Assembly (NCBI GenBank): GCA_045603405.1
Contig: JAZUMA010000015.1
Coordinates: forward strand, 54,933-118,932
Origin: Alphaproteobacteria bacterium
Lineage (GTDB): Bacteria; Pseudomonadota; Alphaproteobacteria; RF32; CAG-239
Length of the DNA: 64,000 nt
Direction: 5' to 3'
The stretch's first letter is position 1, and each line of letters opens with the position of its first letter. The position numbers and the translations under genes were made by a program. Below are positions 7,664-58,986 of the stretch, piece after piece. The notes under the pieces are model-generated. The model was given only the letters and a program-made list of their open reading frames with translations, was not told where the DNA came from and searched no databases.

Positions 7664-8647
7664 TTACCTGCCACTGTTAATATCTTTTACTCCTCTTACC
7701 ACATTCTTTTGCACAGCATCATGAATTTTCTTTGCTTCTTTCCATTCTATTGCGCGCTTCGTCAGATATTTTATGCCTTCTTCATATGCTTTCTTGTCTT
7801 TCTGCTTATCTAGCACAACTTCATACACAAGACTTTTATCTTTTTTAACCTCTCTAAGTTGTTCTCTTAAATACTTTTCTCTTTTTTTACACATCTCATA
7901 TTCTTGTTGCAAAACACTATCAGGTACCTGTATATCTTCTCTAATACCATTTTTTCTAATATTATTATTTTCATTATTTTCACTTTTTTCCATAATCCTT
8001 CTTTCCACCGGTGACCACGCTTTATTCATTGCCATATTTTGCCGAATTAAATCAATTGCATTTACCCCTTTCTTATTTTCTCTATTAACATCAACACCTT
8101 TCTGTTCGGCCAAATATTTAGAAATTTCATACGCAGAAGCAAAATTTTTATTTTGCAATGCCAACATTAAACCTGTATTTCCATCTTTATCAACTGCATT
8201 CAAATTAGCGATTTTTAATGCTTCCACCACATCCTTTTTTTGACCTGTCTTACAAGCTTTCAAAAAACCATCATCATACTTCTTCTGGTACACAGACAGT
8301 TTTTCTTTAATTGTTTCCATCCTTTCCTTTAGCTCGTAAATTTCCTCAAATATCTTTTCTCTCTTTTCCGCTGAACTCGTTTTCGATGCATAAAAATAAT
8401 TGTGACTAGCATACGTATAATCCGCATCACTATATTCCCTTTTAAAAGCCTCAAATATTTCATAATCAGTAACCGAATCAGTAATCGATTGATCTTCAGA
8501 CTGATTTCCACAACTTATTGCCGTTAAACTCGCGCCACCGATTAACAAAGGAACAGCAACGCTCCCTGCTTTCTTCTTTAATTTCCTCGCTTTATTCTTC
8601 AGATCGTTTATTTTTTTCTTTACTTTTTCTTTTACGATTTTACTCAT
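7664..8647 (-). CDS. ankyrin-repeat protein with long basic N-region, lipobox-like LTAISC and coiled-coil segments (probable secreted/surface effector-like protein)
   Basis: 327 aa; ANK consensus GNTGLMLALQNKNFASAYEISKYLAEQKGVDVNRENKKGVNAIDLI; N-terminus MSKIVKEKVKKKINDLKNKARKLKKKAGSVAVPLLIGGASLTAISCGN; RBS AAAGGAG upstream. Confidence 0.75.
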   Translation of the reverse strand: MSKIVKEKVKKKINDLKNKARKLKKKAGSVAVPLLIGGASLTAISCGNQSEDQSITDSVTDYEIFEAFKREYSDADYTYASHNYFYASKTSSAEKREKIFEEIYELKERMETIKEKLSVYQKKYDDGFLKACKTGQKKDVVEALKIANLNAVDKDGNTGLMLALQNKNFASAYEISKYLAEQKGVDVNRENKKGVNAIDLIRQNMAMNKAWSPVERRIMEKSENNENNNIRKNGIREDIQVPDSVLQQEYEMCKKREKYLREQLREVKKDKSLVYEVVLDKQKDKKAYEEGIKYLTKRAIEWKEAKKIHDAVQKNVVRGVKDINSGR

Positions 8648-21884: not shown

Positions 21885-22100
21885 ATGTCTATTAATAACA
21901 ATTCTTTTAACAAACTTCAAGTACAACTTTGTGAGCTGAAGTTGGAGAAAAGAAGAGTCGATGCAGATATAAAAAAGCTGGTTAAAGGCAAGCAATTAAT
22001 AGATTTTTATCAAGCACAACAATTAAATCACCAAAACACAAGTGTAAAAAGTAAAATTCAAAAAGTAGAAACCTTGATAAATCCGAATATTATTGCTTAA
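21885..22100 (+). CDS. small hypothetical coiled-coil protein
   Basis: 71-aa ORF with AGAGGAG SD 9 nt upstream; no homology recognised. Confidence 0.35.
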   Translation: MSINNNSFNKLQVQLCELKLEKRRVDADIKKLVKGKQLIDFYQAQQLNHQNTSVKSKIQKVETLINPNIIA

Positions 22101-22158
22101 ACATCATCGCATGGTCAAAAGCCGTGCCAAGTGCATATTTTTAAATCAGGTAGTTCCT

Positions 22159-23313
22159 ATGAAAAGCAGCAAATATACAACTTTATTTTTAGTTTTATTT
22201 GCTGCTTTAATTTTTTTCTCTGCCGTTTACATCCTATTTATCTACAAAACTGATTACTTAAAAATCTACGTTGTCTATTATAAACCGGCACCGTTAATTA
22301 AATCAGATATATTCGAGCCGATACAAGCCGGTCGCAAAATTGCCGATACATCATCAAGACAAGGTACTTTTTCTCAAGAGCAAATAAATTGGCTCAACAA
22401 CAATATGATTGGTGATGATACCGGCGCTAATATTTCTGAATTAAATCGTTCTTTTGCAGAAATAACCGCTCTTTATTGGCTATGGAAAAATACATCCTCA
22501 CCTTTTATCGGCATGTTCCAATACCGCCGTTTTTTAAGCATAAATGCCAATACACATTACCCGACAGTTGCTTTTCCATCCATGCGTTTTCATCATTTAG
22601 GCATCAAGCATTTAGAAACATTTTCCAAACAATTCCTGCGTGATTTAGAATTAGAAAAAAAATTTATTCTCCCTTGGTTTGCCACTCATGATATTTTACT
22701 TGCAGAACCGATAAAGCTAAATACCTACCAGCAATACCAAGAAGAACATAACATTAAAGATTTAGACCGTGCGCTTGCCATTCTCAAACAAAAATACCCT
22801 GAAATGTATAACTTTGCATTGGCAGATATAAACAGCGAGGCCGGTTTTTACCCTGCAAACTTATTCATCACCAAAAGAGAAATCTTAAACAATTATGCTG
22901 AATGGTTGTTTAGCATTTTACTACCGCTATATGATGAAATAAAAGACGAAGTTAATATGCGCGACACAGAACAAAAATTAGCTTTCGCTTATCTGGCTGA
23001 ACGTCTGTTCACTATATACTTTCGCTACCAAGCTAAATATCATGGTTTAAGAATTAAAGAATTCCCGTTTGCTCTAGCCTCAGATTTCTTTGAACCGCCT
23101 GCCGGAATTCCTTTTTTAAGTCTAAAGACAACTGAATGGCAAGACTTATTTTTAGATCAAAACGATGGCCGGCTATGTAGTTTTAACAACGCCTACCGCA
23201 ATTGCGGTAAATATCAATTTCTACCGCAAAACCGCCTCAAAATCAAATGGGATAACGGTGGCACATCTTATTTTTACCATACCCAAAGCAACAAATTTGA
23301 GTTAGAAAAATAG
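22159..23313 (+). CDS. DUF4422-like putative glycosyltransferase with N-terminal TM anchor
   Basis: Track ORF 22093-23313 trimmed to internal ATG 22159 (MKSSKYTTLFLVLFAALIFF...); motif ELNRSFAEITALYWLWKN...IGMFQYRRFL matches the DUF4422 hallmark (E.Y..W.N...G...YRR). Confidence 0.5.
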   Translation: MKSSKYTTLFLVLFAALIFFSAVYILFIYKTDYLKIYVVYYKPAPLIKSDIFEPIQAGRKIADTSSRQGTFSQEQINWLNNNMIGDDTGANISELNRSFAEITALYWLWKNTSSPFIGMFQYRRFLSINANTHYPTVAFPSMRFHHLGIKHLETFSKQFLRDLELEKKFILPWFATHDILLAEPIKLNTYQQYQEEHNIKDLDRALAILKQKYPEMYNFALADINSEAGFYPANLFITKREILNNYAEWLFSILLPLYDEIKDEVNMRDTEQKLAFAYLAERLFTIYFRYQAKYHGLRIKEFPFALASDFFEPPAGIPFLSLKTTEWQDLFLDQNDGRLCSFNNAYRNCGKYQFLPQNRLKIKWDNGGTSYFYHTQSNKFELEK

Positions 23314-27858: not shown

Positions 27859-27951
27859 ACCATAAAAATTTTTAAGTTATAACAAAAAAAATTAAAACTA
27901 ACGAGATACTATCATTTTTTGACAATTCTGTCAACACAAAAAATATAAAAA

Positions 27952-28285
27952 AATGATGATTGTCGAGCCTCCTCGACTTTGGGATGGATAGAAGTGAATG
28001 CCTTGTGGTAGAAATTTTAGATACACAAAAAAGTAATGGGTGTCGAGCCTCCTCGACTTTGAGATGGATAGAAGTGAATGTCTTCTGACATAAATTTTAG
28101 TGTACATAGAAGTACATGAATTTATGTCATGAAGCACCATTCACAATTTAGACGCTCTCCATACGAAATTAAAGGAAATTTGAGATGGATAGAAGTGAAT
28201 GTCTTCTGACATAAATTTTAGTGTACATAGAAGTACATGAATTTATGTCATGAAGCACCATTCACAATTTAGACGCTCAAATTTC
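27952..28285. repeat. Repeat family B copy 2: gtcgagcctcctcgac mini-palindromes and two tandem ~115-bp hairpin units
   Basis: Unit ttgagatggatagaagtgaatgtcttctgacataaattttagtgtacatagaagtacatgaatttatgtcatgaagcaccattcacaatttagacgctc occurs twice (28060-28165, 28178-28283); arms tgacataaatt/aatttatgtca and gtgaatg/cattcac are inverted. Confidence 0.75.
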
Positions 28286-28287
28286 CT

Positions 28288-28596
28288 TTAATTTGCTGTA
28301 CCGAAGTTTTGCAAATTCTGTATAATTGTCGCTGCTGTTGATTGAGATTCAGCGCTGATTCCGGCTGATTGTAAAGCAAGTTTTTTCACGCAAATTGCAA
28401 CGAGTTCGTCAGAAGTTGCGGATATACCTTTTGCAAAAAGCGTACCGGCCTGAAATTTAGCAGTTGCCTCACTGACTAAACATGCACGCATTCTTGTTTT
28501 AATTGGAGCTTTAGCATCTGCGGTTGAATATTGAGAAACGGTATCACAACCGGCAAGCATCAACAATGTTGCCATACAAAATAGAATTTTTTTCAT
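28288..28596 (-). CDS. small hypothetical lipoprotein
   Basis: 102 aa; MKKILFCMATLLMLAGC lipoprotein signal. Confidence 0.45.
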   Translation of the reverse strand: MKKILFCMATLLMLAGCDTVSQYSTADAKAPIKTRMRACLVSEATAKFQAGTLFAKGISATSDELVAICVKKLALQSAGISAESQSTAATIIQNLQNFGTAN

Positions 28597-28858
28597 TTTT
28601 CCCTCTCTTAAAAATTAAACATTATGTTTATAAAACAAAAGGCATCTGCTGTCAAATATTTTGGGCTGACTTTCATTGATTTTTATTCTTGCTCTCAAAG
28701 ATCTGATAATTACAAAAAACGCTACCGCTTATTTTTACAATAAATTCAATATGTTAACAAATAATATTATAACTTTTATGACTAAAGATATATTGAACTT
28801 TTGTCTATTTTGTGGTATATTTAGATAATGAGGGATTTTATTATTAAAGGGGGGAGCC

Positions 28859-29554
28859 ATGAGATACAGTTCATCAGAAAACGGCCGCTCAATGATAGAA
28901 ATGCTAGGTGTTTTAGCTATTGTCGGCATCCTCTCCACAGGCGCAATTTCTGGTTATTCCAAAGCGATGCTAAAACACAAAACAAACAAAACTGTTGAAC
29001 TAATTACTCAAATGTCTATGGGAATCAAAACAGCCTTTTCAACACAAAAAAACTATTCAGGCTCAGGCAACATAGATACCCTCAATAAATTAGGCATTAT
29101 ACCTAGTAACATTATTAAAGAAGAACGTATCAATCTCAATAATACTCCTGGTCTAGGTAATGGCGGAGGCAGAGGTGGCAGAATCGGTATCGGAACAGGA
29201 TTAGGAAATCCAAATACACAGATAGCAGATAGAATTGTTAATACATGTTCTAATCCTTTTAATGGTGAAATAGAGGTAGTAGAGGCTGATAAAAAAGAAA
29301 CTGATGACCAAAAAGCTTTTATAGTCAGAGCCACCAATCTACCTACGGAAGCTTGCTCAACTTTAGTCTCATTGATCTGGAGTAACAGCGATGAAAGCCT
29401 TGTTTCAGTTGGTATTAATACAGAAGATGATATGCAATCTCCTGAATGCGAATCAAGCGATACTCTTTTCTGCGGAGATGAAGACGTCAGCGTAGCTGAA
29501 ATCATAAGTGCTTGCAATAATAATACTAACAATGTTGCTTTCAAATTCTACTAA
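28859..29554 (+). CDS. type IV pilin-like / pseudopilin protein (class III prepilin signal, Gly-rich middle, Cys-rich acidic C-terminus)
   Basis: 231 aa; N-terminus ENGRSMIEMLGVLAIVGILSTGAISGY = prepilin-peptidase site G|RSMIE with Glu+5 and hydrophobic helix; GGGRGGRIGIGTGLG tract; 6 Cys in C-terminal third. Confidence 0.6.
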   Translation: MRYSSSENGRSMIEMLGVLAIVGILSTGAISGYSKAMLKHKTNKTVELITQMSMGIKTAFSTQKNYSGSGNIDTLNKLGIIPSNIIKEERINLNNTPGLGNGGGRGGRIGIGTGLGNPNTQIADRIVNTCSNPFNGEIEVVEADKKETDDQKAFIVRATNLPTEACSTLVSLIWSNSDESLVSVGINTEDDMQSPECESSDTLFCGDEDVSVAEIISACNNNTNNVAFKFY

Positions 29555-29614
29555 TATATTGATAAAAAACAACTCACAAAAAAAACCGCCTTTCGGGGCG
29601 GTTTTTGCATTTTC

Positions 29615-30646
29615 TTATTTAAAAAAGGAAACAATTTTTTTTACCTTATAATAAATTTGCCGAAAATAATGTTTCCACCCTGGCAAATATCGAATAGGCA
29701 ACATTTTTTCAGTTATCAAGTTAAGTGCTTGTAATTTTTCCATTCTATCCGGCGCTTCTTTAATTTGTGCCACAGCATTTTCAACAATAGCCTTTCTTAA
29801 ATCATCAAGATTAGCAGGTTTCGGTTTCCAATTGATATACTTCATATCTCGCCAATCATAAATCGGAACAATACCTTGCAAAATATCATACCGCACATTT
29901 ACCACATTTTTTGCAATAAATATAACCGGAATTCCCATTGCAATACAAGGCATTGCCACATGAATACGCGAAGTAATAACCAGAGATGCTTGATTTTTAT
30001 ATATTTCCAAAATTTCTCTGGCTTTTTGTTCAAAAGCAAGCGCATCTTCATATGTAAGTTCTTTATCTTTATCCCATTTATAAACATGTGTAATAGAAAA
30101 GTCTGCTTTTTCAGCAATTTCTTTCGGCAGTTTTTCGAGAGCTCTTTTATAAAGATCAACCACAAATATTTTTCCGTTTTCAGGCTCTTTTGTTCTTTTA
30201 TCAAAAGTCAATGTCATACAGCCTGAAAAGTAAGCTTTAACCCCGTGAGCCAATAAAAAATCACGAGTATTTCTGTCTCTGCACCCAACCGGTTCAAAAG
30301 GCTTCATATCATCTTGTATTTTTTTCTGAATAAATATTTTTCTGCTGTTATTTGTTGTATTTAAATGAAACCCTAAAAAGAGAGGCGTAATATCAGCCGA
30401 CCATGGAAACGGAAAATGACCATAGGCCTCTGCAAAATAAGATTGCATAACCAGCTTTACTTTTTCTCCATGATAATTAGCTAAATCATCCCTGTTAACC
30501 AAAATCAACTCATCTTTGGAAATACCTGCCTTAGCGTATAAGTTTTCTACTGCAATATTTTGTACGCAATCTCCCAGATTTCCTTCTTTTTTCCATCCAT
30601 TCTCCGACTTATACATATACTGCACATACAATCGAGCAAACCGCAT
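29615..30646 (-). CDS. polysaccharide pyruvyl transferase family protein (CsaB/WcaK-like)
   Basis: 343 aa; N-terminal GNLGDCVQNIA resembles pyruvyl-transferase G.N.GD motif; by recollection only. Confidence 0.5.
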   Translation of the reverse strand: MRFARLYVQYMYKSENGWKKEGNLGDCVQNIAVENLYAKAGISKDELILVNRDDLANYHGEKVKLVMQSYFAEAYGHFPFPWSADITPLFLGFHLNTTNNSRKIFIQKKIQDDMKPFEPVGCRDRNTRDFLLAHGVKAYFSGCMTLTFDKRTKEPENGKIFVVDLYKRALEKLPKEIAEKADFSITHVYKWDKDKELTYEDALAFEQKAREILEIYKNQASLVITSRIHVAMPCIAMGIPVIFIAKNVVNVRYDILQGIVPIYDWRDMKYINWKPKPANLDDLRKAIVENAVAQIKEAPDRMEKLQALNLITEKMLPIRYLPGWKHYFRQIYYKVKKIVSFFK

Positions 30647-30757
30647 CTGACCTTCCCTTCATTTAAACATCACTTATTATATTTTTAATAAATGGAAAAG
30701 CATTTGCCAAATATTTATCTTCTCTCTCCACAAATATTTTATTTACCTGTTTCACAC

Positions 30758-30830
30758 AAAAAAAAGCAGGCTTTTATTTTAAGCCTGCTTTTTTTCGTAT
30801 TCGTTCCATTTGTTCTGATAGATACGCCAC
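30758..30830. repeat. terminator-hairpin direct repeat copy 1 (partner at 31781-31850)
   Basis: aaaaaaaagcaggcttttattttaagcctgctttttttcgtattcgttccatttgttct versus aaaaaaagcaggcttttattttaagcctacttttttgtattcatttcatttgttct; palindromic stem agcaggc/gcctgct followed by T-run (bidirectional terminator). Confidence 0.7.
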
Positions 30831-31013
30831 ACATCCTTGCGCGTGAGCAACATATTCCATATCTAGTGGCTTCTTTCTCTCTGCCACAGTTGCATAGCAC
30901 AGTATGAGTAGCACAGATGCCAAATACTCCTCCAATTCAGTGCAACAAGTCATCTTATCCTCTAGCTCATCAATAAGCTCTTCAAGACCTGTGGCTTCTT
31001 TTTGATGATACAT
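30774..31013 (-). CDS. small hypothetical ORF overlapping 3' end of upstream ORF (possible frameshifted continuation)
   Basis: 79 aa; overlaps 30962-31741 by 52 nt in another frame; C-terminus encoded by terminator hairpin. Confidence 0.25.
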   Translation of the reverse strand: MYHQKEATGLEELIDELEDKMTCCTELEEYLASVLLILCYATVAERKKPLDMEYVAHAQGCVAYLSEQMERIRKKAGLK

Positions 31014-31741
31014 GAATTGATATTTCCCATAACACTACAAATCTCATTCCGCTCTTCGTCAGAAAGGTATAACATGCATGAGAACATAATTACACTGTTA
31101 ACAAGATTCTTCGCTACTTCGATATCAATGTCTTTAACAGACACCATCATAGCCAATTCACGTTTACATACCATCATTCCAAATGGCAGTGCAATCTCAA
31201 CAAGTTCACGCTTCTGCGCATCTGTTGTATGATACATGATGTCCATGTGCGAGAAGCATGCCATTTTCCCCAAAAGATTGATCGCCATCTTGCTGGAATA
31301 ATTCCTATACAGGTGAGACGTGACCTGTCTATAAACCTTCAGACGAAACGATACTTCGTCTTCCGGCTTACAAAATACCGGGTCTACCCACGAAAACTGC
31401 TCTATCCACGCCTGCAATCTTGATTGCTGTGCTGCAGACTCATCATTTTGAGAAAGCAATTCATAAACTTTCCTCATCTTAGCAATCAAATTTTTTATAA
31501 ACCAAGGCTGTTCATCATTGATAATGATGTTCTTCACCAAAAGTTCAAAAACTGTGAGGAGAAACTCAACCTCTTCTTTTTTAATTGTATTCATACCTAA
31601 AAATAACCGGCAAAACCTCCTTGAACCTGCACCGCCGAAAGCACAGAGGAAAATAATAATACTAGAAACTATAACGACTATACATTTTTTCAGAATTTTG
31701 TCAAGTTTAAATTTATCTAAGTTTCTCTCTTTAACAACCAA
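30962..31741 (-). CDS. hypothetical protein
   Basis: 259-aa ORF, N-terminal TM segment; no family recognised. Confidence 0.4.
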   Translation of the reverse strand: MVVKERNLDKFKLDKILKKCIVVIVSSIIIFLCAFGGAGSRRFCRLFLGMNTIKKEEVEFLLTVFELLVKNIIINDEQPWFIKNLIAKMRKVYELLSQNDESAAQQSRLQAWIEQFSWVDPVFCKPEDEVSFRLKVYRQVTSHLYRNYSSKMAINLLGKMACFSHMDIMYHTTDAQKRELVEIALPFGMMVCKRELAMMVSVKDIDIEVAKNLVNSVIMFSCMLYLSDEERNEICSVMGNINSCIIKKKPQVLKSLLMS

Positions 31742-31924
31742 AGGAATATCGTGCCTACTCGATATATCTGCTTATCCTACCAACAAAAAAAGCAGGCTTT
31801 TATTTTAAGCCTACTTTTTTGTATTCATTTCATTTGTTCTATCTCTTCATAGACCTGTGTTTTTTTTTCGGCGATATATAAAAAAATCATCTCTGAATAA
31901 GAAGATTTTTATACAATTAGCTGT

Positions 31925-32644
31925 CTAAAAAAGAAGTATATACAAGACAATAATGTAAAAGACTGCACAACCCACTGCTATTAATTCTTTATTTTGATCA
32001 ATATCAAAAGAATAAACCGTCATACATCCAAGGAAAATACTCGCCAAAACCAACCATAACATATCTTCTGTACGATAACGCTTTTTAGTGTATCCGAAAG
32101 CGTTCAAAACACTTTCATCTATTCCTTGTACTGAAGACACATATACATCCCCTCTTTTAGGTAACGTGCTATCCCCCTTGTTCATAGCTTCAAGTTCAAC
32201 ATATGTTATCAACTTTGGATCATGCTTAGAACGGTCATAGGCAATTTTTTCTTTAGGAAAATACCAAATATTTGGATTTTTAGCATAAATTTTATTATAC
32301 TCTTCTTGTAAAACATTAGTATAATAATTGCACCTTAACTTTTCCCCTCTCAAATTGTACCATGCTTTTAAACAATTATTTTTTCCAAACAAAACAACCG
32401 TACTATCTTCGTCATAACCGAAAAACATTTCCTCGTATTCACCAACCAAAATAAAATTTGGTGCGCCAGTTGAAGTGTAACAACGTTTTTGATCATACGC
32501 ACGATCATTCAATCTATAAATAGTTCCTTTCTCTGAACCATTTGAGTAGCTGTATACACAAATAAACTCAAGATTGTCTCTATACTTATACTCACATGAC
32601 TGCAAAATACAAGCAACTAAAAAGAAAAATAAATATTTTTTCAT
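31925..32644 (-). CDS. hypothetical lipoprotein with C-terminal TM segment
   Basis: 239 aa; MKKYLFFFLVACILQSC lipobox; Tyr/Asn-rich. Confidence 0.45.
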   Translation of the reverse strand: MKKYLFFFLVACILQSCEYKYRDNLEFICVYSYSNGSEKGTIYRLNDRAYDQKRCYTSTGAPNFILVGEYEEMFFGYDEDSTVVLFGKNNCLKAWYNLRGEKLRCNYYTNVLQEEYNKIYAKNPNIWYFPKEKIAYDRSKHDPKLITYVELEAMNKGDSTLPKRGDVYVSSVQGIDESVLNAFGYTKKRYRTEDMLWLVLASIFLGCMTVYSFDIDQNKELIAVGCAVFYIIVLYILLF

Positions 32645-32854
32645 ACTTTTTTTGCACGGACTTTTACCGTTACTGTTTTTAATAATTTAACATAATATCA
32701 TTTTATACGCTTAATCTATCTTTTATTAGATAAAAGTCAAGTTTTTTATTAATGCGCTTAGCCGTACAATTATCTGATAAAAGTCCATTTTCTAAAATCT
32801 CGAATTGCTATCTACACACAAAAAACCGCCCTTAAAGGACGGCTTTATTTGAAA

Positions 32855-32941
32855 TGGTGCGCTAGGCCGGAATCGAACCGGCACGGGATTGCTCCCAACA
32901 GATTTTAAGTCTGCAGCGTCTACCAGTTCCGCCACAAGCGC
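32855..32941 (-). tRNA. tRNA-Leu (UAA), class II with long variable arm, CCA encoded
   Basis: Reverse complement GCGCTTG TG GCGG AACTGGTAGA CGC T GCAGA CTTAAAA TCTGT TGGGAGCAATCCCGT GCCGG TTCGATT CCGGC CTAGCGC A CCA; anticodon loop CT-TAA-AA; one T-T mismatch in acceptor stem. Confidence 0.85.
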
Positions 32942-33073
32942 AAATCCATAACAGAAGACTTTATACAAACAAAAAAATATAATTGCAACATAAAACTTGT
33001 TTTTTTTTTAATTAAGGATAAAATTTTTTTGTTCAGACGATGCAGCGCACGCCTGAAAGCTTAAAAAACACGG

Positions 33074-33106
33074 CATATACGACAGAAACAGCGTTTCGGT
33101 ATATGC
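33074..33106. promoter_or_regulatory. two-tier stem-loop 20 nt upstream of pssA start (attenuator/terminator-like; T-runs on both strands)
   Basis: gcatatac-gacagaaacagcgtttcg-gtatatgc (8-bp outer stem, inner gaaac/gtttc stem); flanked by aaaaaaca 5' and tttattt 3'. Confidence 0.3.
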
Positions 33107-33128
33107 TTTATTTAAGAAAGGAAAACAT

Positions 33129-33938
33129 ATGAAAAAACAAACTGGGAAATTGCAATTTTCCGCCAATAAGTTTCCGGAAATGCCTTTCCGCAAACTTGTT
33201 CCGAACATTGTAACCATGCTAGCCCTTTGTTCGGGAATGACCTCAATTCGCTATGCTATCGGTGAAAACTGGAGCAAAGCTGTATTCTTTATCTTTTTAG
33301 CCGCTCTATTTGATGGCTTAGATGGTCGTGTTGCTCGCATGCTCAAAGCTTCATCAAAATTTGGCGCCGAACTCGATTCTTTAAGTGATTTTCTTTGCTT
33401 CGGTGTTGCTCCGGCAATTTTAATGTTCCAATGGTGTTTATTTGACCTTCCCAAAATCGGTTGGTTCTTCTGCTTGTTATATGCCATGGGCATGGCAATG
33501 CGTTTGGCTCGTTTTAATACCATGTTAGAAGATGATACCATTCCGCCATACTGGTCACATTATTTTACCGGCGTACCGGCACCTGCCGCCGCTGCTCTCG
33601 TTATGATGCCTATATTACTGGGCTTAGGTTTTCATCTCACGGGTGAACAACATTTTTTAAGAACACATTTATTCTGCAGCATTTGGATGTGCATTGTATT
33701 TTATCTTGAAACAAGCCAAATCCCGACCATATCGCTTAAAAAAGCCAAAGTAAAACCTTCAATGGTTATACCGTTACTGGTTATTGTCGCCATCATTGCT
33801 CACTTTTTATTTACGCAAATATGGCTTACTTTAGGTATTTTAACTGCATTATATGCACTAAGTATTCCTTATGGAATTTTACGCTTTTTAAGGGATAAAC
33901 GCTTATACTTAGAAGCACAAACCAAAACCAAAGACTAA
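33129..33938 (+). CDS. pssA: CDP-diacylglycerol--serine O-phosphatidyltransferase (CDP-alcohol phosphatidyltransferase family)
   Basis: 269 aa; DGLDGRVAR-x8-G-x3-D-x3-D (FDGLDGRVARMLKASSKFGAELDSLSD) CDP-alcohol transferase signature; multi-TM. Confidence 0.8.
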   Translation: MKKQTGKLQFSANKFPEMPFRKLVPNIVTMLALCSGMTSIRYAIGENWSKAVFFIFLAALFDGLDGRVARMLKASSKFGAELDSLSDFLCFGVAPAILMFQWCLFDLPKIGWFFCLLYAMGMAMRLARFNTMLEDDTIPPYWSHYFTGVPAPAAAALVMMPILLGLGFHLTGEQHFLRTHLFCSIWMCIVFYLETSQIPTISLKKAKVKPSMVIPLLVIVAIIAHFLFTQIWLTLGILTALYALSIPYGILRFLRDKRLYLEAQTKTKD

Positions 33939-35160: not shown

Positions 35161-35164
35161 CCTA

Positions 35165-36277
35165 TTAAACATTGAAGAGGAAATTCATCAAATCCCCATC
35201 TTGAACCACATACTCCTTCCCTTCGGAGCGCATCTTTCCGGCCTCTTTACATCCTTGCTCACCGTCATATTTAATATAATCATCATAAGCTATTGTTTCT
35301 GCCCGAATAAACCCGCGTTCAAAATCAGAGTGAATAATTCCGGCACACTGTGGCGCTTTAGAACCTTTGAGGAATGTCCAAGCCCGCACTTCTTTCGGAC
35401 CTGCGGTAAAATATGTTTCTAAGCCTAATAGGTCATAACCGGCTTTAATAATTTTGGTCAATCCGGTCTCTTCTAAGCCGAGAGAAGAGAGAAATTCTTG
35501 TTTTTCCTCTTCACTATCCAGTTGTGCCACTTCAGATTCAATTTCTGCAGAAATAATCACCGCTTTAGCACCTTCTTTTTCAGCTTTTTCAAATACGCGC
35601 TTAGAAAAATCATTTCCGCTTGCCGCACTGTTCTCATCCACATTACAAACATAAAGCACCGGCTTTGAAGTTAAGAGTTGCATCATTTGATATTGTTTAT
35701 AGGCATCTTTATCTGCAACAGAAGGTGCAGCCGTCCGTGCCGGCTTTCCTGCTTTTAAGGCTTCAATAATCGGTTCCATAACCCTCGCCCGCACAGCTGC
35801 TTCTTTATCCCCGCCGGTTTGTGCCTTTTTCTTTGTTTGTTCAAAACGTTTTTCCAATGATTCCAAATCAGCAATCATCAACTCTGTTTCGACAATTTCT
35901 GCATCGCGTATCGGATCAACCGACCCCTCAACGTGTGTAATATTACTATCTTCGAAACAACGTAAAACATGGATAATAGCATCTGTTTCACGAATATTGG
36001 CTAAAAATTGGTTACCTAAACCTTCACCTTTAGAAGCGCCTTTAACCAAACCGGCAATATCAACAAATTCAAGTTGCGTCGGTACAATATTTTTCGGATG
36101 CACAATATCAGCCAAAGCTTGCAAACGTTTATCCGGCACAGCCACCCGACCGGTATTCGGTTCAATTGTACAAAAAGGAAAGTTTGCCGCCTGTGCTGCA
36201 ATTGTTTGTGTTAAAGCATTAAACAATGTTGATTTTCCAACGTTTGGCAACCCGACAATACCACAATTAAACCCCAT
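35165..36277 (-). CDS. ychF: ribosome-binding ATPase YchF (Obg-family GTPase)
   Basis: 370 aa; MGFNCGIVGLPNVGKSTLFNALT..., C-terminal TGS domain. Confidence 0.95.
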   Translation of the reverse strand: MGFNCGIVGLPNVGKSTLFNALTQTIAAQAANFPFCTIEPNTGRVAVPDKRLQALADIVHPKNIVPTQLEFVDIAGLVKGASKGEGLGNQFLANIRETDAIIHVLRCFEDSNITHVEGSVDPIRDAEIVETELMIADLESLEKRFEQTKKKAQTGGDKEAAVRARVMEPIIEALKAGKPARTAAPSVADKDAYKQYQMMQLLTSKPVLYVCNVDENSAASGNDFSKRVFEKAEKEGAKAVIISAEIESEVAQLDSEEEKQEFLSSLGLEETGLTKIIKAGYDLLGLETYFTAGPKEVRAWTFLKGSKAPQCAGIIHSDFERGFIRAETIAYDDYIKYDGEQGCKEAGKMRSEGKEYVVQDGDLMNFLFNV

Positions 36278-36337
36278 TTTACACTCCTATAATTTTCATA
36301 TATGAAGCGGTTATAAGCGATATTTTTGTTAATTGCA

Positions 36338-36372
36338 ATAAAAAAAGCAGTGAGATTTTTTGTCTCACTGCT
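36338..36372 (-). terminator. rho-independent terminator downstream of 36376-36921 gene (minus strand)
   Basis: gcagtgaga-ttttttg-tctcactgc with aaaaaaa on plus side (T-run on minus strand). Confidence 0.55.
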
Positions 36373-36375
36373 TTT

Positions 36376-36921
36376 CTACACATCAAAAGTAGCACTATGC
36401 CTTCCAGAGTTTTGTTCAAGCAGCTCCGGCCACTGTCTTTCCATTCGCCTCATAGCTCGGTTACTCCAGTTGTAACCTAAATCAATAAATGCTTGCTGAA
36501 GTTTCCCTTTTCCAAGAAAATTCAGAATATCTAATTCTACTTCTTCAGGTATCGTACCTTTGTGAAGTTTTACAAGCATCAGAGCAAAAAGATTTACCAA
36601 ATCTTTAGTTTCTTCAACCTTTTCCAGAGCCCTTGGTAAGTAAAGCATTTTAGGCAGAGTTAAGAGAAGTTCTAGATTTTTATCAACCAAAAAATCTATA
36701 TATGACTCTTGGGGACCAAAGCTATTCACATTTCTTTGCTCGTATTCCACCTTATCTTTTTTAATACCTCTCTTCAAAAGCTGAATAAGCTTGTCTTCCT
36801 GTTCATCATTTTTTTGGGCCATTTCGGCTCTGATTCGACCCGGAAAGAATCCCCTGTTGGTATCCAAATACCATCTTACACCTGCTTCGGCCAAATCTTC
36901 TAATGTAAATTCCATAATCAA
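36376..36921 (-). CDS. hypothetical protein
   Basis: 181-aa ORF, no family recognised. Confidence 0.45.
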   Translation of the reverse strand: MIMEFTLEDLAEAGVRWYLDTNRGFFPGRIRAEMAQKNDEQEDKLIQLLKRGIKKDKVEYEQRNVNSFGPQESYIDFLVDKNLELLLTLPKMLYLPRALEKVEETKDLVNLFALMLVKLHKGTIPEEVELDILNFLGKGKLQQAFIDLGYNWSNRAMRRMERQWPELLEQNSGRHSATFDV

Positions 36922-36957
36922 AATTAATAGTTAATAAAATAATTAAATAAAAACTTC

Positions 36958-37530
36958 TCATTTGGCATTATGCATGCCGACCACGTTAGAATAATGTGCA
37001 ATACCTTTTTTTATTAGTTCATTAATCGTTTCTGCCACAAAATTCAAACGTTCATCTAAAACTTCCATTTCCGCTTTAGAAAAGCGCGATAAAACAAAAT
37101 TTATTGTATCTGTATTATGTTCTTTGGGATTTCCTGCCCCGATACGGATACGATTATATTCTGTGCCTATATGCGCATCTATATTTTTTAATCCGTTATG
37201 TCCGCCGGCAGAACCGCCTATTTTTGCTTTTATTTTCCCCAAAGCTAAATCTTTATCATCATGAATAACAATTATATTTTCCGGTTTAATTTTATAAAAC
37301 TGTGCCACTTTCCCGACCGAGTTACCGGATAGATTCATAAAAGTTTGCGGTTTTAATAATAAAACTTTTTCTCCGTCAATCTCTCCTTCTGCAAGCAAAC
37401 CTTCAAATTTACTTTTATAAGGAGAGAATTCATAGCGGCTGTGGATTTCATCAGCCGCCATAAACCCTATATTGTGGCGTGTTTTAGCATACTCCTCACC
37501 AGGATTACCAAGACCAACCACTAAAAACAT
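36958..37530 (-). CDS. pth: peptidyl-tRNA hydrolase
   Basis: 190 aa; MFLVVGLGNPGEEYAKTRHNIGFMAADEI canonical Pth N-terminus. Confidence 0.92.
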   Translation of the reverse strand: MFLVVGLGNPGEEYAKTRHNIGFMAADEIHSRYEFSPYKSKFEGLLAEGEIDGEKVLLLKPQTFMNLSGNSVGKVAQFYKIKPENIIVIHDDKDLALGKIKAKIGGSAGGHNGLKNIDAHIGTEYNRIRIGAGNPKEHNTDTINFVLSRFSKAEMEVLDERLNFVAETINELIKKGIAHYSNVVGMHNAK

Positions 37531-37544
37531 CGTTTTAACCTTTA

Positions 37545-37835
37545 TTACTTACGCATAAAGTCAACGTGAATCGGCATATCAGAAACCGGATGGAACTGCA
37601 CATCTTTGCAAATAACTTTTTCGTTCTTTTTACCGAGTGCAATAACAATCGTTGATTTGTAGAAATCAGCCAAATCCAAAGCTTTTTCAAGCTCTACCGG
37701 GTGTAAACTGATATTAACGGCATCTTTTTTACCGCCATAAATAACAGCAGGAATGCGACCTTCTCTACGACATGCACGAGCTGCCCCCTTACCTGCTTTT
37801 TCACGCAAAACAGCATTAAATGTAATTTCAGACAT
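37545..37835 (-). CDS. rplY: 50S ribosomal protein L25 (short form)
   Basis: 96 aa; REKAGKGAARACRREGRIPAVIYGG; conserved pth-adjacent position. Confidence 0.85.
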   Translation of the reverse strand: MSEITFNAVLREKAGKGAARACRREGRIPAVIYGGKKDAVNISLHPVELEKALDLADFYKSTIVIALGKKNEKVICKDVQFHPVSDMPIHVDFMRK

Positions 37836-38046
37836 TTTTATAATCCTTTTTATAATTAATTAAGTTTAATATTACAAAAAAACCGAACAACCTCCAGGGG
37901 TGTTATTCGATTATTTCCAAACGTACCCCAAAAATTTATATTTGTCAACCCCAAATATTAGAGGACGCCATTTAAAAGCATTACAAATATGGCGGAAAAT
38001 GGCAAGAAGTCACCATTTTGCCATTACCGCCTCTATTTCTTTTTTA

Positions 38047-57364: not shown

Positions 57365-58492
57365 ATGGTAAAAAGTTTTCCTGGAGTGCGAACAGCAAAT
57401 CGCATAAGAAATGGTAGAAAAGATATTTACTTTTCTATTCGCTATACCAAAAACGGTAAGCAATGTGAAGAAGGCATCGGTTATAAATCAGACGGATTTA
57501 CAGCAGAAAAAACCTACGAAATTTTAAAAGAATTAAAACAAGATATAAAAGCAGGTAAAGTATCTTCTTTACGCGACAAAAACAACCAACGCGAACAAGA
57601 AAGAATTGCTAATGAGGCGGCAAATATGACGTTCTCAGAGCTTTTTGAAGAATATTATCAGCCGCATATTCAAAATAAAGACAAAAAATCAACATATGAC
57701 AGAGAAGTTAACCTATATAAAGTATGGCTTAGACCTTTTTTGGGAGATGTTAGGTTAAACCTCATTAGCCTCAAAAGCCTCACTAGGTTAATTCAAGCTA
57801 TGGATAAAAAACATTTATCTAATCGTACAAAACGCTATGCTATAGCACTAACGCGACAAGTTCTTAATTTTGCAATTAAATATGAGCTATTTGCAGGGGA
57901 AAATCCGGCAGCAAGATTTGACGAGCTGAAAAAGGAAGATAATCAACGTGTAAAGTTTTTAAGCGAAGAAGATTTAAACAATCTTTTAGCAGAAATAAAG
58001 AAACATAGCTATCAAGTTTATGTAATGGCACTTATTTCCGCCGATTGCGGACTACGCGCCGGAGAAATTTTCAGACTAACTTGGGCTGATGTAAGCCTAG
58101 AAGAAAAAATGCTGTTTTTGCGTGATACAAAAAATGGCAAGAATCGTTATGCCTATATGACAGACCGTGTTTTTGATGAACTTTCAAAATTAAAACAGCA
58201 TGAAGGCAATGAATTAGTCTTTCAAAGCAGAGAGGGAAAGAAAATAGAACATGTTTCACGCACTTTTGAACGTGCAGTCAAAGCATTGGGATTAAATAAA
58301 GGTGTTACAGACCGCAGGCAAAAAGTAGTTTTTCATTCTTTAAGGCACACATTTGCCAGTCGGTTAGTGCAAAAACGCGTTTCACTTTACGAAGTCAAAG
58401 AACTGTTAGGACATTCCGATATTGCAATGACTCAACGCTATTCACACTTGGCAAATGAAACGCTACGAGAGGCTGTTTCTAAGCTTAATTAG
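57365..58492 (+). CDS. int: tyrosine-type site-specific recombinase/phage integrase
   Basis: 375 aa; C-terminal catalytic region HSLRHTFASRLVQKRVSLYEVKELLGHSDIAMTQRYSHL (R..HxxR...Y). Confidence 0.85.
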   Translation: MVKSFPGVRTANRIRNGRKDIYFSIRYTKNGKQCEEGIGYKSDGFTAEKTYEILKELKQDIKAGKVSSLRDKNNQREQERIANEAANMTFSELFEEYYQPHIQNKDKKSTYDREVNLYKVWLRPFLGDVRLNLISLKSLTRLIQAMDKKHLSNRTKRYAIALTRQVLNFAIKYELFAGENPAARFDELKKEDNQRVKFLSEEDLNNLLAEIKKHSYQVYVMALISADCGLRAGEIFRLTWADVSLEEKMLFLRDTKNGKNRYAYMTDRVFDELSKLKQHEGNELVFQSREGKKIEHVSRTFERAVKALGLNKGVTDRRQKVVFHSLRHTFASRLVQKRVSLYEVKELLGHSDIAMTQRYSHLANETLREAVSKLN

Positions 58493-58653
58493 AGCAGTTT
58501 AACATATTATTTTGTTTATTATTTCGGGGCTTTTTTTTAAGTTCCGCACTCAAAATATTTTTGCACCCAAAAAAGGTGAATTGAGGTCTTTGGTCGTTAT
58601 AGCGCGAAAAAACAATGGTGTTTTTTCATAACTTTCGAAAAAGGAAACGGAAA

Positions 58654-58986
58654 ATGAAGAAAAACAATGATTTATCGCCAAGATTCTTTGAAATTTACAA
58701 AAGTAAACTTCTCGAACAAGCACCTTTAATTAGCCGAGTTAAGCTTTGCGAAATACTCCCATTTCTGAGCAGAAACACATTACGAAATATTGATTATGAA
58801 AACCCAGAAAAAGGAATAGGCGAAGTTTACTACGTAAACGGCAAAGCTTACTATGATGTAAACGATGTAATCCTATACATAAAAAAGAAATTTTGCAACC
58901 CCGAAAATGAAAAGGAGAATACAAAAAATGAAATTATTAAAAGTCGACCACAAAATTTTAGTTATAAAAGCGGAGGTATGAAATGA
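58654..58986 (+). CDS. AlpA/excisionase-like small HTH protein (putative Xis/regulator of the element)
   Basis: Track ORF 58615-58986 trimmed to ATG 58654 (MKKNNDLSPRF...) with AGGAAA SD; LCEILPFLSRNTLRNIDYENPEKGIGEVYYVNGKAYYDVNDVILYIKK resembles AlpA-family HTH layout. Confidence 0.4.
   Translation: MKKNNDLSPRFFEIYKSKLLEQAPLISRVKLCEILPFLSRNTLRNIDYENPEKGIGEVYYVNGKAYYDVNDVILYIKKKFCNPENEKENTKNEIIKSRPQNFSYKSGGMK

What the first reader, a model, noticed from the sequence alone, without database searches (positions are those of the whole stretch)
28859..29554. Type IV pilin-like gene in an accessory block abutting the 3' end of tRNA-Leu
The 231-aa product has a textbook class III prepilin signal (G|RSMIEMLGVLAIVGIL with Glu+5), then a Gly-rich tract and a Cys-rich acidic C-terminal domain unlike standard pilin globular heads. 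It sits with a pyruvyl-transferase-like gene, several lipoprotein/unknown genes and, further upstream, a DUF4422 glycosyltransferase-like gene. The whole 28.3-32.7 kb block ends at the 3' end of tRNA-Leu(UAA), a classical island insertion point, and carries no recognisable housekeeping gene. No prepilin peptidase or pilus ATPase is in the window, so this may be an orphan or novel pseudopilin-like surface/secreted protein.
Basis: partly seen in the sequence, partly recalled or inferred. Interest (0 to 1): 0.55.

Follow-up and report, generated by a model that had tools for sequence, protein, structure and literature searches.

The report
Standalone type IVb pilin gene copy
This gene encodes a real pilus-fibre subunit (a type IVb pilin) from a very large, unnamed family in gut and rumen Alphaproteobacteria whose members all have an unusual arginine as the predicted first mature residue. 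It is a standalone copy away from the pilus-assembly genes, not a new kind of surface protein and not cargo of a tRNA island.

Summary
The ORF (28859-29554, +, 231 aa), its G|RSMIE motif with Glu+5, the named neighbours and tRNA-Leu(UAA) at 32855-32941 are all real. The C-terminal domain is not unusual. It scores above Pfam's cut-offs for PilS_N and Bundlin, a family profile hits BfpA, PilS, TcpA and CofA in the PDB, and the AlphaFold model's top 16 fold matches are all type IVb pilins. Only the Gly-rich tract (residues 95-124) is an idiosyncratic disordered insertion.

The protein belongs to a family of thousands of sequence clusters in rumen and gut Alphaproteobacteria MAGs. All share a near-invariant N-terminus, GRSM(I/V)EMLGVLAI, with Arg always at +1. 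One MAG carries at least 30 dispersed copies.

In related genomes some copies lie in an R64-type type IVb pilus operon (TcpQ-like, PilN secretin, PilO, PilP, ATPase, platform, pilins, PilT-like). Most copies, like this one, are standalone genes.

In the nearest relative the pilin gene sits at the same position with a conserved promoter. Only the 3.3 kb between it and the tRNA differs, and there is no integrase, att repeat or GC shift.

No prepilin peptidase was found in the window or in 2 Mb of related loci. Processing therefore remains inferred.

The parts
28793..28821 (+). Promoter-like site: TTGAAC, 17-nt spacer, TATATT, with a TG extended -10
   Evidence: The block 28739-28858 is conserved in the orthologous locus of the relative L001, including the -35 hexamer and TGGTAT.
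28847..28856 (+). Purine-rich ribosome-binding site (AAGGGGGGAG) just upstream of the ATG
   Evidence: Read directly from the sequence. L001 has AAGGAGGG at the same place.
28859..29554 (+). Type IVb pilin gene, 231 aa plus stop codon; a standalone paralogue of the GRSM(I/V)EMLG family
28859..28885 (+). Predicted leader peptide MRYSSSENG (9 aa) ending in the invariant Gly(-1)
   Evidence: G9 is invariant in alignment A1. Family leaders are mostly 7-12 aa. Cleavage is inferred, not shown.
28886..29038 (+). Residues 10-60: Arg(+1), Glu(+5), the hydrophobic alpha1-N segment and the rest of the long alpha1 helix
   Evidence: AlphaFold places a helix at 10-60. Residues 9-45 are 90% conserved across 114 family members. 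Third codon positions are free, so selection acts on the protein.
29141..29230 (+). Gly-rich insertion (residues 95-124), predicted to be disordered
   Evidence: pLDDT 51-70, and below 50 at residues 103-106. Column occupancy is only 5% in the family. The orthologue P0002 has a different, Lys/Glu-rich insert at the same site.
29231..29551 (+). Beta-sheet head domain (residues 125-231) with the conserved Cys166/Cys219 pair and Trp174
   Evidence: PF08805 matches residues 127-228. C166 is present in 98% and C219 in 100% of family members. Fold matches are to CofA, TcpA and PilS.
29581..29606 (+). Intrinsic terminator-like hairpin followed by a T-run, 27 nt after the stop codon
28288..28596 (-). 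102-aa lipoprotein gene, a conserved neighbour transcribed divergently from the pilin gene
   Evidence: Lipobox LAGC. 76% nucleotide identity with L001 7303-7653.
29555..32820 (.). Strain-specific segment between the pilin gene and tRNA-Leu: pyruvyl transferase 29615-30646, and ORFs of 79, 259 and 239 aa
   Evidence: No blastn match to L001, which carries an Exo_endo_phos gene and a 128-aa ORF here instead. No integrase or att repeat. GC 0.33-0.36, like the rest of the window.
32855..32941 (-). tRNA-Leu(UAA); its 3' end faces the variable segment
   Evidence: The same tRNA lies at the same position in L001.

Best explanation
The gene encodes a type IVb-class pilin. It is one standalone member of a large paralogous family of rumen and gut Alphaproteobacteria.

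Proposed mechanism:
1. The gene is transcribed from its own conserved promoter as a single-gene unit.
2. The prepilin inserts into the inner membrane through its hydrophobic N-terminus.
3. A prepilin peptidase removes the 9-residue leader after Gly9. This leaves Arg as residue 1 and Glu as residue 5.
4. The subunit is polymerised through its nearly invariant alpha1-N helix by an R64/PilS-type type IVb pilus machine encoded elsewhere in the genome (PilN-type secretin, PilO, PilP, PilQ-type ATPase, PilR-type platform).
5. The variable head, including the disordered Gly-rich loop, is exposed on the fibre.
6. The many full-length paralogues with one common N-terminus and divergent heads would then serve as alternative or minor subunits that change the adhesive or antigenic surface of one pilus.

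Shown: the pilin identity and fold, the family and its invariant N-terminus, the presence of paralogues inside type IVb operons in related genomes, and the standalone transcription-unit anatomy.

Inferred: cleavage at G|R, presence of the machine in this genome, incorporation into a fibre, and the role in surface variation.
For: - Pfam: PilS_N 36.3 bits (cut-off 22) and Bundlin 26.9 bits (cut-off 22.3).
- A family profile against PDB sequences: BfpA 1zwt E=5e-17, PilS 1q5f 4e-6, TcpA 8uhf 4e-6, CofA.
- AlphaFold model pLDDT 85.3, with a helix at 10-60 and a beta head. The top 16 Foldseek PDB hits are all type IVb pilins, with CofA 9iuf at E=1e-6 and TM-score 0.68 normalised to the target.
- G9, R10, S11, M12, E14-A20, C166 and W174 are invariant in alignment A1. 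All 235 family ORFs in related loci have Arg at +1.
- Conservation is at the protein level: consensus fraction 0.91 at codon positions 1 and 2 against 0.56 at position 3.
- Fourteen of the 165 fetched loci carry a T2SSE-type ATPase gene within 10 kb of a family member. For L040 the full gene order was read: TcpQ-like, secretin, PAP_PilO, PilP-like, T2SSE ATPase, T2SSF platform, two pilin-fold genes, PilT-like ATPase. For L054/L090 a similar order was read up to the platform gene.
- The L040 secretin scores 281.7 bits on TIGR02520, the PilN type IVB model (cut-off 287.65).
- The in-operon pilin has the same N-terminus and aligns end to end with the window protein (31% identity, E=2e-31).
- Promoter-like site, ribosome-binding site and terminator are present, and the promoter is conserved in the orthologous locus.
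Against: - No assembly gene and no A24 prepilin peptidase lies in the 64-kb window. A PilD probe, checked against Pfam A24, found none in 2.0 Mb flanking about 235 family genes, including the operons.
- Both N-methylation motif models score below threshold: PF07963 16.6 against 21.2, and TIGR02532 13 against 16.3.
- To my knowledge, Arg at +1 is unknown in characterised pilins, so cleavage at G|R is unproven.
- Whether this genome has the operon is unknown.
- The 9-aa leader is shorter than in classical type IVb pilins.
Confidence: 0.7

Rival explanations
1. The protein enters the same type IVb pilus, but as a low-abundance minor or tip subunit that acts as a specificity-determining adhesin. 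The operon-encoded pilin would be the only major subunit. This would be analogous to R64 PilV variants, except that the variants come from separate genes rather than from a shufflon.
For: - The operons already carry their own pilin with the same N-terminus.
- There are dozens of standalone paralogues with divergent heads.
- The window protein has an unusual exposed Gly-rich loop.
Against: - Sequence and fold resemble major pilins (bundlin, PilS, TcpA, CofA), not the large minor pilins.
- The protein aligns end to end with the in-operon pilin.
- There are no expression or stoichiometry data either way.
Confidence: 0.2
2. The protein is a pilin-derived protein that no longer forms filaments. It would stay anchored in the inner membrane by its uncleaved N-terminal helix, or be released after cleavage by signal peptidase I. 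It would act as a periplasmic or surface protein, and this genome would have no matching machine.
For: - No machine or peptidase in the window or near most paralogues.
- Arg at +1 and sub-threshold N_methyl scores.
- The related operons contain a pilin-fold protein with an ordinary transmembrane anchor and no G...E motif, at L040 9277-9873.
Against: - Ninety per cent conservation of residues 9-45, including Gly-1 and Glu5, under protein-level selection is what an assembly interface shows, not a signal peptide.
- The N-terminus is identical to that of the in-operon pilins.
Confidence: 0.08
3. The gene is horizontally acquired cargo of a genomic island integrated at tRNA-Leu.
For: - The 3.3 kb between the pilin gene and the tRNA 3' end differs completely from the closest relative.
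- No housekeeping gene lies in 28.3-32.7 kb.
Against: - The pilin gene, its promoter and the adjacent lipoprotein gene are positional orthologues in L001, on a colinear backbone of 68-83% nucleotide identity.
- No integrase, no direct repeat of the tRNA end and no GC deviation.
- The variation consists of several small independent insertions, not one block.
Confidence: 0.07
4. The protein is a type II secretion pseudopilin (GspG-like).
For: - It has a class III-like signal.
- JGI labels some homologues 'PulG'.
Against: - No GspG/T2SSG family match.
- The 222-aa mature size and type IVb fold do not fit.
- The associated secretin is PilN type IVB, with only 38.9 bits on the GspD model.
Confidence: 0.02

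Closest known systems
Bundlin BfpA of enteropathogenic E. coli (PDB 1zwt; Pfam PF05307)
   Same: Best sequence match of the family profile (E=5e-17, covering most of the mature protein). It shares alpha1-C, the Y..GL..P motif, the 'ACxxLat' helix with the conserved Cys, and a C-terminal Cys.
   Different: - Bundlin has a longer leader and Leu at +1 (my own knowledge).
- bfpA heads a plasmid operon that includes its own peptidase (my own knowledge).
- Here the leader is 9 aa, +1 is Arg, and the gene stands alone on the chromosome.
PilS major pilin of the Salmonella Typhi / IncI1 plasmid R64 thin pilus (PDB 1q5f, 3fhu; Pfam PF08805)
   Same: - PF08805 scores above its cut-off over residues 127-228.
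- Fold match.
- The machine found next to paralogues has the gene order secretin, PilO, PilP-like, ATPase, platform, pilins. This matches R64 pilN-O-P-Q-R-S as I recall it.
   Different: - The alphaproteobacterial operons, as far as captured, lack the pilU peptidase, the pilV minor pilin and the rci shufflon. They have a PilT-like ATPase instead.
- Pilins occur as dozens of dispersed genes.
TcpA (Vibrio cholerae) and CofA (enterotoxigenic E. coli) type IVb pilins (PDB 8uhf, 1oqv, 3hrv, 9iuf, 3s0t)
   Same: Best structural matches over the full length (TM-score 0.63-0.70 normalised to the target).
   Different: - Only 11-15% sequence identity.
- Those pilins have Met at +1 and about 25-30-aa leaders (my own knowledge).
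- The Gly-rich loop is absent from them.
Multi-copy pilin repertoires: Neisseria pilE/pilS cassettes and the R64 PilV shufflon
   Same: One conserved assembly module combined with many variable surface modules.
   Different: - Here every copy is full length with its own start codon. The copy in this window also has its own promoter-like site and terminator.
- Third codon positions of the conserved N-terminus are free, so nothing points to DNA-level cassette conversion.
- The functional analogy is speculative.

Membership tests
Type IV pilin (class III signal peptide) | Hydrophilic leader of 6-26 aa ending in Gly (definition as in PMC4471445) | tested here: met
   The leader is MRYSSSENG (9 aa). 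Gly9 is invariant in the family.
Type IV pilin (class III signal peptide) | About 21 mainly hydrophobic residues after the Gly, interrupted by Glu5 | tested here: met
   The segment is RSMIEMLGVLAIVGILSTGAI. Glu14, which is +5, is invariant. The exception is a charged Arg at +1.
Type IV pilin (class III signal peptide) | Scores above threshold on the N-methylation motif models (PF07963, TIGR02532) | tested here: not met
   PF07963 scores 16.6 against 21.2. TIGR02532 scores 13 against 16.3. Both align in register from Ser11 onwards.
Type IV pilin (class III signal peptide) | Leader removed by an A24 prepilin peptidase | not testable with these tools
   No A24 gene was found in the window or in 2.0 Mb of related loci (probe validated). 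The rest of the genome is not available.
Type IV pilin (class III signal peptide) | Lollipop fold: a long alpha1 helix plus an antiparallel beta-sheet head, with a C-terminal disulfide | tested here: met
   The AlphaFold model has a helix at 10-60 and a beta head, pLDDT 85.3. C166 and C219 are conserved in 98-100% of members. The disulfide itself is inferred.
Type IVb pilin subclass (PilS / bundlin / TcpA) | Head-domain homology to PilS_N or Bundlin above the curated cut-offs | tested here: met
   PF08805 scores 36.3 against 22. PF05307 scores 26.9 against 22.3. The family profile hits 1zwt, 1q5f and 8uhf.
Type IVb pilin subclass (PilS / bundlin / TcpA) | Type IVb fold topology | tested here: met
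   The top 16 Foldseek PDB hits are all type IVb pilins. No type IVa pilin appears among the hits with E<=0.07.
Type IVb pilin subclass (PilS / bundlin / TcpA) | Long leader peptide (classical criterion, now regarded as non-discriminatory; PMC10191384) | tested here: not met
   The leader is 9 aa here and mostly 7-12 aa in the family.
Type IVb pilin subclass (PilS / bundlin / TcpA) | Non-Phe residue at +1 and a mature length of about 180-220 aa | tested here: met
   Residue +1 is Arg. The mature protein is 222 aa, and the family median is 202 aa.
Type IVb pilin subclass (PilS / bundlin / TcpA) | Gene clustered with its assembly genes | tested here: not met
   No assembly gene lies in the window. 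The feature is met for paralogues in related genomes such as L040 and L054.
T2SS major pseudopilin (GspG) | Match to GspG/T2SSG models and a size of about 140 aa | tested here: not met
   No such hit in Pfam or NCBIfam. The mature protein is 222 aa.
tRNA-associated genomic island | Integrase gene and a direct repeat of the tRNA 3' end bounding the block | tested here: not met
   No integrase between 26 and 33 kb. No repeat of the tRNA end.
tRNA-associated genomic island | Whole block absent from, or different in, related genomes | tested here: inconclusive
   Only one relative was available (L001/L002). Segment 29555-32820 is replaced there, but the pilin and lipoprotein genes are conserved in place.
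tRNA-associated genomic island | Atypical base composition | tested here: not met
   GC is 0.33-0.36 across 28-33 kb, within the range of the window.

The most novel reading that the evidence does not exclude
The GRSM(I/V)EMLG proteins form a distinct, undescribed branch of type IVb pilins. Three things would set it apart:
- An invariant Arg at +1 would imply a different N-terminal chemistry. The Arg1 guanidinium might pair with Glu5, or the end might be left unmethylated or modified differently.
- The matching prepilin peptidase would have altered specificity and would be encoded away from the operon.
- Repertoires of 30 or more full-length genes per genome would let uncultured gut and rumen Alphaproteobacteria swap the exposed surface of a single pilus.
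Probability: 0.35. Interest if true: 0.65.

Novelty: new variant of a known kind. Interest (0 to 1): 0.42.

Why it matters
Type IVb pili are known mainly from enteric pathogens and from IncI plasmids. Here the same kind of machine appears on the chromosome of abundant, uncultured commensal Alphaproteobacteria of rumen and gut.

It is paired with a very large pilin gene family: 8,869 clusters at 50% identity with E<=1e-3. NCBI leaves the members that carry a name as 'hypothetical protein', and the window protein scores below the cut-offs of both N-methylation motif models.

Three consequences follow:
- A simple signature, G-R-S-M-[IV]-E-M-L-G, would allow these proteins to be annotated.
- The invariant Arg at +1 gives a concrete test of how tolerant prepilin peptidases and pilus assembly are at that position.
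- The paralogue repertoire is a candidate system for surface variation in host-associated bacteria.

For this particular window the practical message is more modest. The gene is an ordinary member of that family and is not island cargo.

Tried and rejected
- Exact look-up of the window protein's contig: not on record.
- Search for a second pilin or any pilus machinery in the window, by tblastn, motif regex, Pfam on about 50 ORFs and a PilD phmmer probe: nothing.
- Search for an A24 peptidase near family genes in 165 loci (2.0 Mb): none. A GxGDxK motif screen over polytopic ORFs of 130-330 aa in the first 91 sequences (1.46 Mb): none.
- Search for att-type repeats of the tRNA-Leu end: none. The 19-29-nt matches found are terminator hairpins.
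- DNA-level concerted evolution or cassette conversion of the conserved 5' end: rejected, because third codon positions are nearly saturated.
- Phase-variable G-tract in the ribosome-binding site: rejected, because the G6 run is not conserved in L001.
- JGI metagenome scan for closer orthologues, to compare more tRNA-Leu flanks: best full-length match only 35% identity.
- Rfam scan: only the two tRNAs.
- Literature searches for this family, for RF32-type gut Alphaproteobacteria pili, or for Arg at +1: nothing relevant.
- The 546-aa first gene of the related operon as a large minor pilin: rejected, because it has no prepilin motif.

Full report
**1. Observation**

Its N-terminus is a 9-residue hydrophilic leader, MRYSSSENG, followed by RSMIEMLGVLAIVGILSTGAI. 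Gly is therefore at -1 and Glu at +5, in register with the Pfam N_methyl model.

tRNA-Leu(UAA) lies at 32855-32941 on the minus strand, with its 3' end facing the block.

The neighbours are as described:
- a pyruvyl transferase (PF04230, 57.6 bits) at 29615-30646;
- products with lipobox-type N-termini;
- a DUF4422 gene at 22093-23313.

The window holds one pilin-like gene only. It has no pilus ATPase, platform protein, secretin or prepilin peptidase. Otherwise it is ordinary alphaproteobacterial chromosome, with PNPase, PFK, TruB, pssA, Pth, YchF, TrxR, AsmA and ribosomal proteins.

**2. What the protein is**

It is not.
- Pfam PilS_N (PF08805) scores 36.3 bits against a cut-off of 22, over residues 127-228. 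Bundlin (PF05307) scores 26.9 against 22.3.
- A profile of 37 family members finds BfpA (1zwt, E=5e-17), PilS (1q5f), TcpA (8uhf, 3hrv, 1oqv) and CofA among solved structures.
- The AlphaFold model has mean pLDDT 85.3 and pTM 0.75. It shows a continuous helix at residues 10-60 and a beta-sheet head.
- The model's 16 best PDB fold matches are all type IVb pilins: CofA 9iuf at E=1e-6 with TM-score 0.68 normalised to the target, then TcpA and PilS.
- Cys166 and Cys219 are conserved in 98-100% of the family. They correspond to the usual pilin disulfide pair, which is an inference.
- Cys197 and Cys205 occur in about a third of members. Cys130 is unique to this protein.
- The Gly-rich tract (residues 95-124) is an insertion present in about 5% of family members. 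It is modelled with low confidence.
- The orthologue in the nearest relative has a different, Lys/Glu-rich insert at the same site.

**3. The family**

The word-indexed search gave 524 homologues. Most carry no name. The few named by NCBI are 'hypothetical protein' from Alphaproteobacteria or Pseudomonadota MAGs, and a few JGI entries are labelled as pilus-assembly or pseudopilin proteins (PilE, FimT, PulG).

An exhaustive profile search of 1.84 billion representative proteins gave 8,869 clusters at E<=1e-3, 5,600 at <=1e-10 and 846 at <=1e-30.

In species-representative genomes, more than 598 stretches matched the N-terminal patterns. Nearly all lay in 'Alphaproteobacteria bacterium' MAGs from rumen, reticulum, colon or faeces of deer, yak, sheep, goat, buffalo, horse, rabbit and humans.

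The N-terminus is almost invariant:
- G9, R10, S11, M12, E14, M15, L16, G17, V18, L19 and A20 are identical in all 37 aligned sequences.
- All 235 family ORFs in the fetched loci, and 269 of 275 fetched proteins, read G-R-S-M-[IV]-E. The other six include five gene calls that start inside or after the motif and one variant reading GRSMIEIL.
- Conservation is on the protein. The consensus fraction is 0.91 at codon positions 1 and 2 but 0.56 at position 3.
- Residues 9-45 are 90% conserved, against 37-44% for the rest of the protein.

Such conservation is what an assembly interface shows, not a Sec signal peptide.

Paralogy is extreme. MAG RGIG4773 has at least 30 distinct genes in the roughly 230 kb of it that I hold. 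They are spread over seven contigs and both strands.

**4. Is there a machine?**

Most family genes are standalone and sit among housekeeping genes. Fourteen of the 165 loci, however, have a T2SSE-type ATPase within 10 kb of a family member.

In L040 the gene order is:
1. unknown 482-aa protein;
2. TcpQ-like protein;
3. secretin;
4. PAP_PilO;
5. PilP-like protein (TIGR03021, 31.5 bits against cut-off 34.65);
6. ATPase (559 aa);
7. T2SSF platform protein;
8. a pilin-fold protein without a prepilin motif;
9. a family pilin with GRSMVEMLG;
10. a PilT-like ATPase.

The secretin scores 281.7 bits on TIGR02520, 'PilN family type IVB pilus formation outer membrane protein' (cut-off 287.65). It scores only 38.9 bits on GspD.

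A similar arrangement, read as far as the platform gene and the motif-less pilin-fold gene, occurs in RGIG4773. As I recall it, this is the gene order of R64 and Salmonella Typhi pilN-O-P-Q-R-S.

The in-operon pilin aligns end to end with the window protein (31% identity, E=2e-31). The only exception is the Gly-rich insert.

The most economical reading is that the standalone copies are substrates of this one machine.

**5. The open point: the peptidase**

I used a PilD sequence as a probe. Pfam confirmed it as A24_N_bact plus Peptidase_A24. It found no homologue in the window or in 2.0 Mb of family loci, operons included.

The R64 operon carries its own peptidase (pilU), as I recall it. These operons, as far as captured, do not.

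The N_methyl models also fall below threshold. This is a plausible reason, though untested, why NCBI leaves its named members unnamed.

To my knowledge, Arg at +1 has not been reported for a characterised pilin. The reviews I read describe the segment after the Gly as predominantly hydrophobic (PMC4471445; PMC10191384). Cleavage at G|R is therefore inferred from register and conservation only.

**6. Island question**

The closest relative available is ruminal_MAG_71 (GCA_045221335.1, locus L001). It is colinear with the window at 68-83% nucleotide identity from PNPase to AsmA, apart from an inversion of the YchF-Pth segment.

Conserved in place:
- the 102-aa lipoprotein gene (28287-28636);
- the pilin promoter and 5' end (28739-28992), including the -35 hexamer and the extended -10;
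- tRNA-Leu plus pssA (32821-33914).

The two pilins are positional orthologues. They are 61% identical over residues 1-93 and 47% over residues 127-231, with unrelated central inserts.

Different between the two genomes:
- 23.3-24.4 kb (DUF805 gene);
- 26.4-28.3 kb (hydrolase, a 170-aa membrane protein and tandem repeats);
- a 2.2-kb insert in L001 between the lipoprotein and pilin genes;
- the segment between the pilin gene and the tRNA. In the window this is 29555-32820, with the pyruvyl transferase and ORFs of 79, 259 and 239 aa. L001 has an Exo_endo_phos gene and a 128-aa ORF there.

There is no integrase, no repeat of the tRNA end and no GC shift. This is a small plasticity zone with several independent indels. 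The pilin gene is a stable resident of it, not its cargo.

**7. Gene anatomy**

- A promoter-like site with a TG-extended -10 lies at 28793-28821.
- A purine-rich ribosome-binding site lies at 28847-28856.
- A terminator hairpin lies at 29581-29606.

Together these make a single-gene transcription unit.

**8. Verdict**

It is wrong on the 'non-standard head' and on the island.

The gene is a new member of the type IVb pilin class. At family level this is an undescribed variant for three reasons:
- an invariant Arg at +1 with a short leader;
- dozens of dispersed full-length copies per genome;
- an R64-type operon without a peptidase gene nearby.

Interest is moderate. It rests mainly on the family, not on this locus.

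Noticed in passing
window 27947-28278: An intergenic tandem-repeat array lies between the 170-aa membrane-protein gene and the lipoprotein gene. One unit has an 80-nt period (86% matches). Two copies of 100 nt, spaced 121 nt apart, are 100% identical. The array lies in a segment absent from the relative L001 and matches no Rfam family.
   Followed up: partly
window 57365-61328: A tyrosine integrase (PF00589, 57365-58492) is followed by a PrimPol/DUF3987 primase-helicase-like gene (58983-61328). This looks like an integrated mobile element at the far end of the window. It is not next to either tRNA.
   Followed up: no
window 30759-30816 and 31785-31840: A roughly 60-nt repeat with a 36-nt AT-flanked GC hairpin (AAAAAAAGCAGGCTTTTATTTTAAGCCTGCTTTTTT) occurs on both sides of the 79-aa/259-aa gene pair. 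The copies are 1026 bp apart, as if the module had been inserted or duplicated between two copies of a bidirectional terminator.
   Followed up: no
window 35164-37850 versus L001 13604-16305: The YchF-Pth-L25 segment is inverted relative to the closest relative, while the flanking backbone is colinear.
   Followed up: no
L040 9277-9873; L090 13303-13923: In the related type IVb operons, the gene right after the platform gene encodes a protein of about 200 aa. The L040 copy matches PilS and Bundlin in Pfam, whereas the L090 copy gave no such match. Both have an ordinary N-terminal transmembrane anchor and no G...E prepilin motif.
   Followed up: partly
L011, L013, L015, L017, L034, L039, L042, L050, L054, L056, L065, L074, L076, L090 (MAG RGIG4773, JAFUSA01): One roe-deer reticulum MAG carries at least 30 distinct full-length genes of this pilin family. 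Some contigs hold 5-9 copies within 20-60 kb.
   Followed up: partly
L036, L053, L057, L059: A few family genes sit on contigs binned as Bacteroidaceae, [Ruminococcus] gnavus or Lactobacillus sp. These are most likely mis-binned alphaproteobacterial contigs, not gene transfer.
   Followed up: no
window 7664-8647: A 327-aa ORF has a weak ankyrin-repeat match (25.4 bits, cut-off 27.3). An Ank-rich 1007-aa protein lies just upstream of the pilin homologue in L004.
   Followed up: no
L040 12869-15738; L087 4817-7683: A VWA-domain protein, a PP2C phosphatase and a Ser/Thr kinase-like gene lie in a row a few kb from the type IVb operon in L040. ORFs of matching sizes and order recur in L087, but they were not scanned against Pfam.
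   Followed up: no
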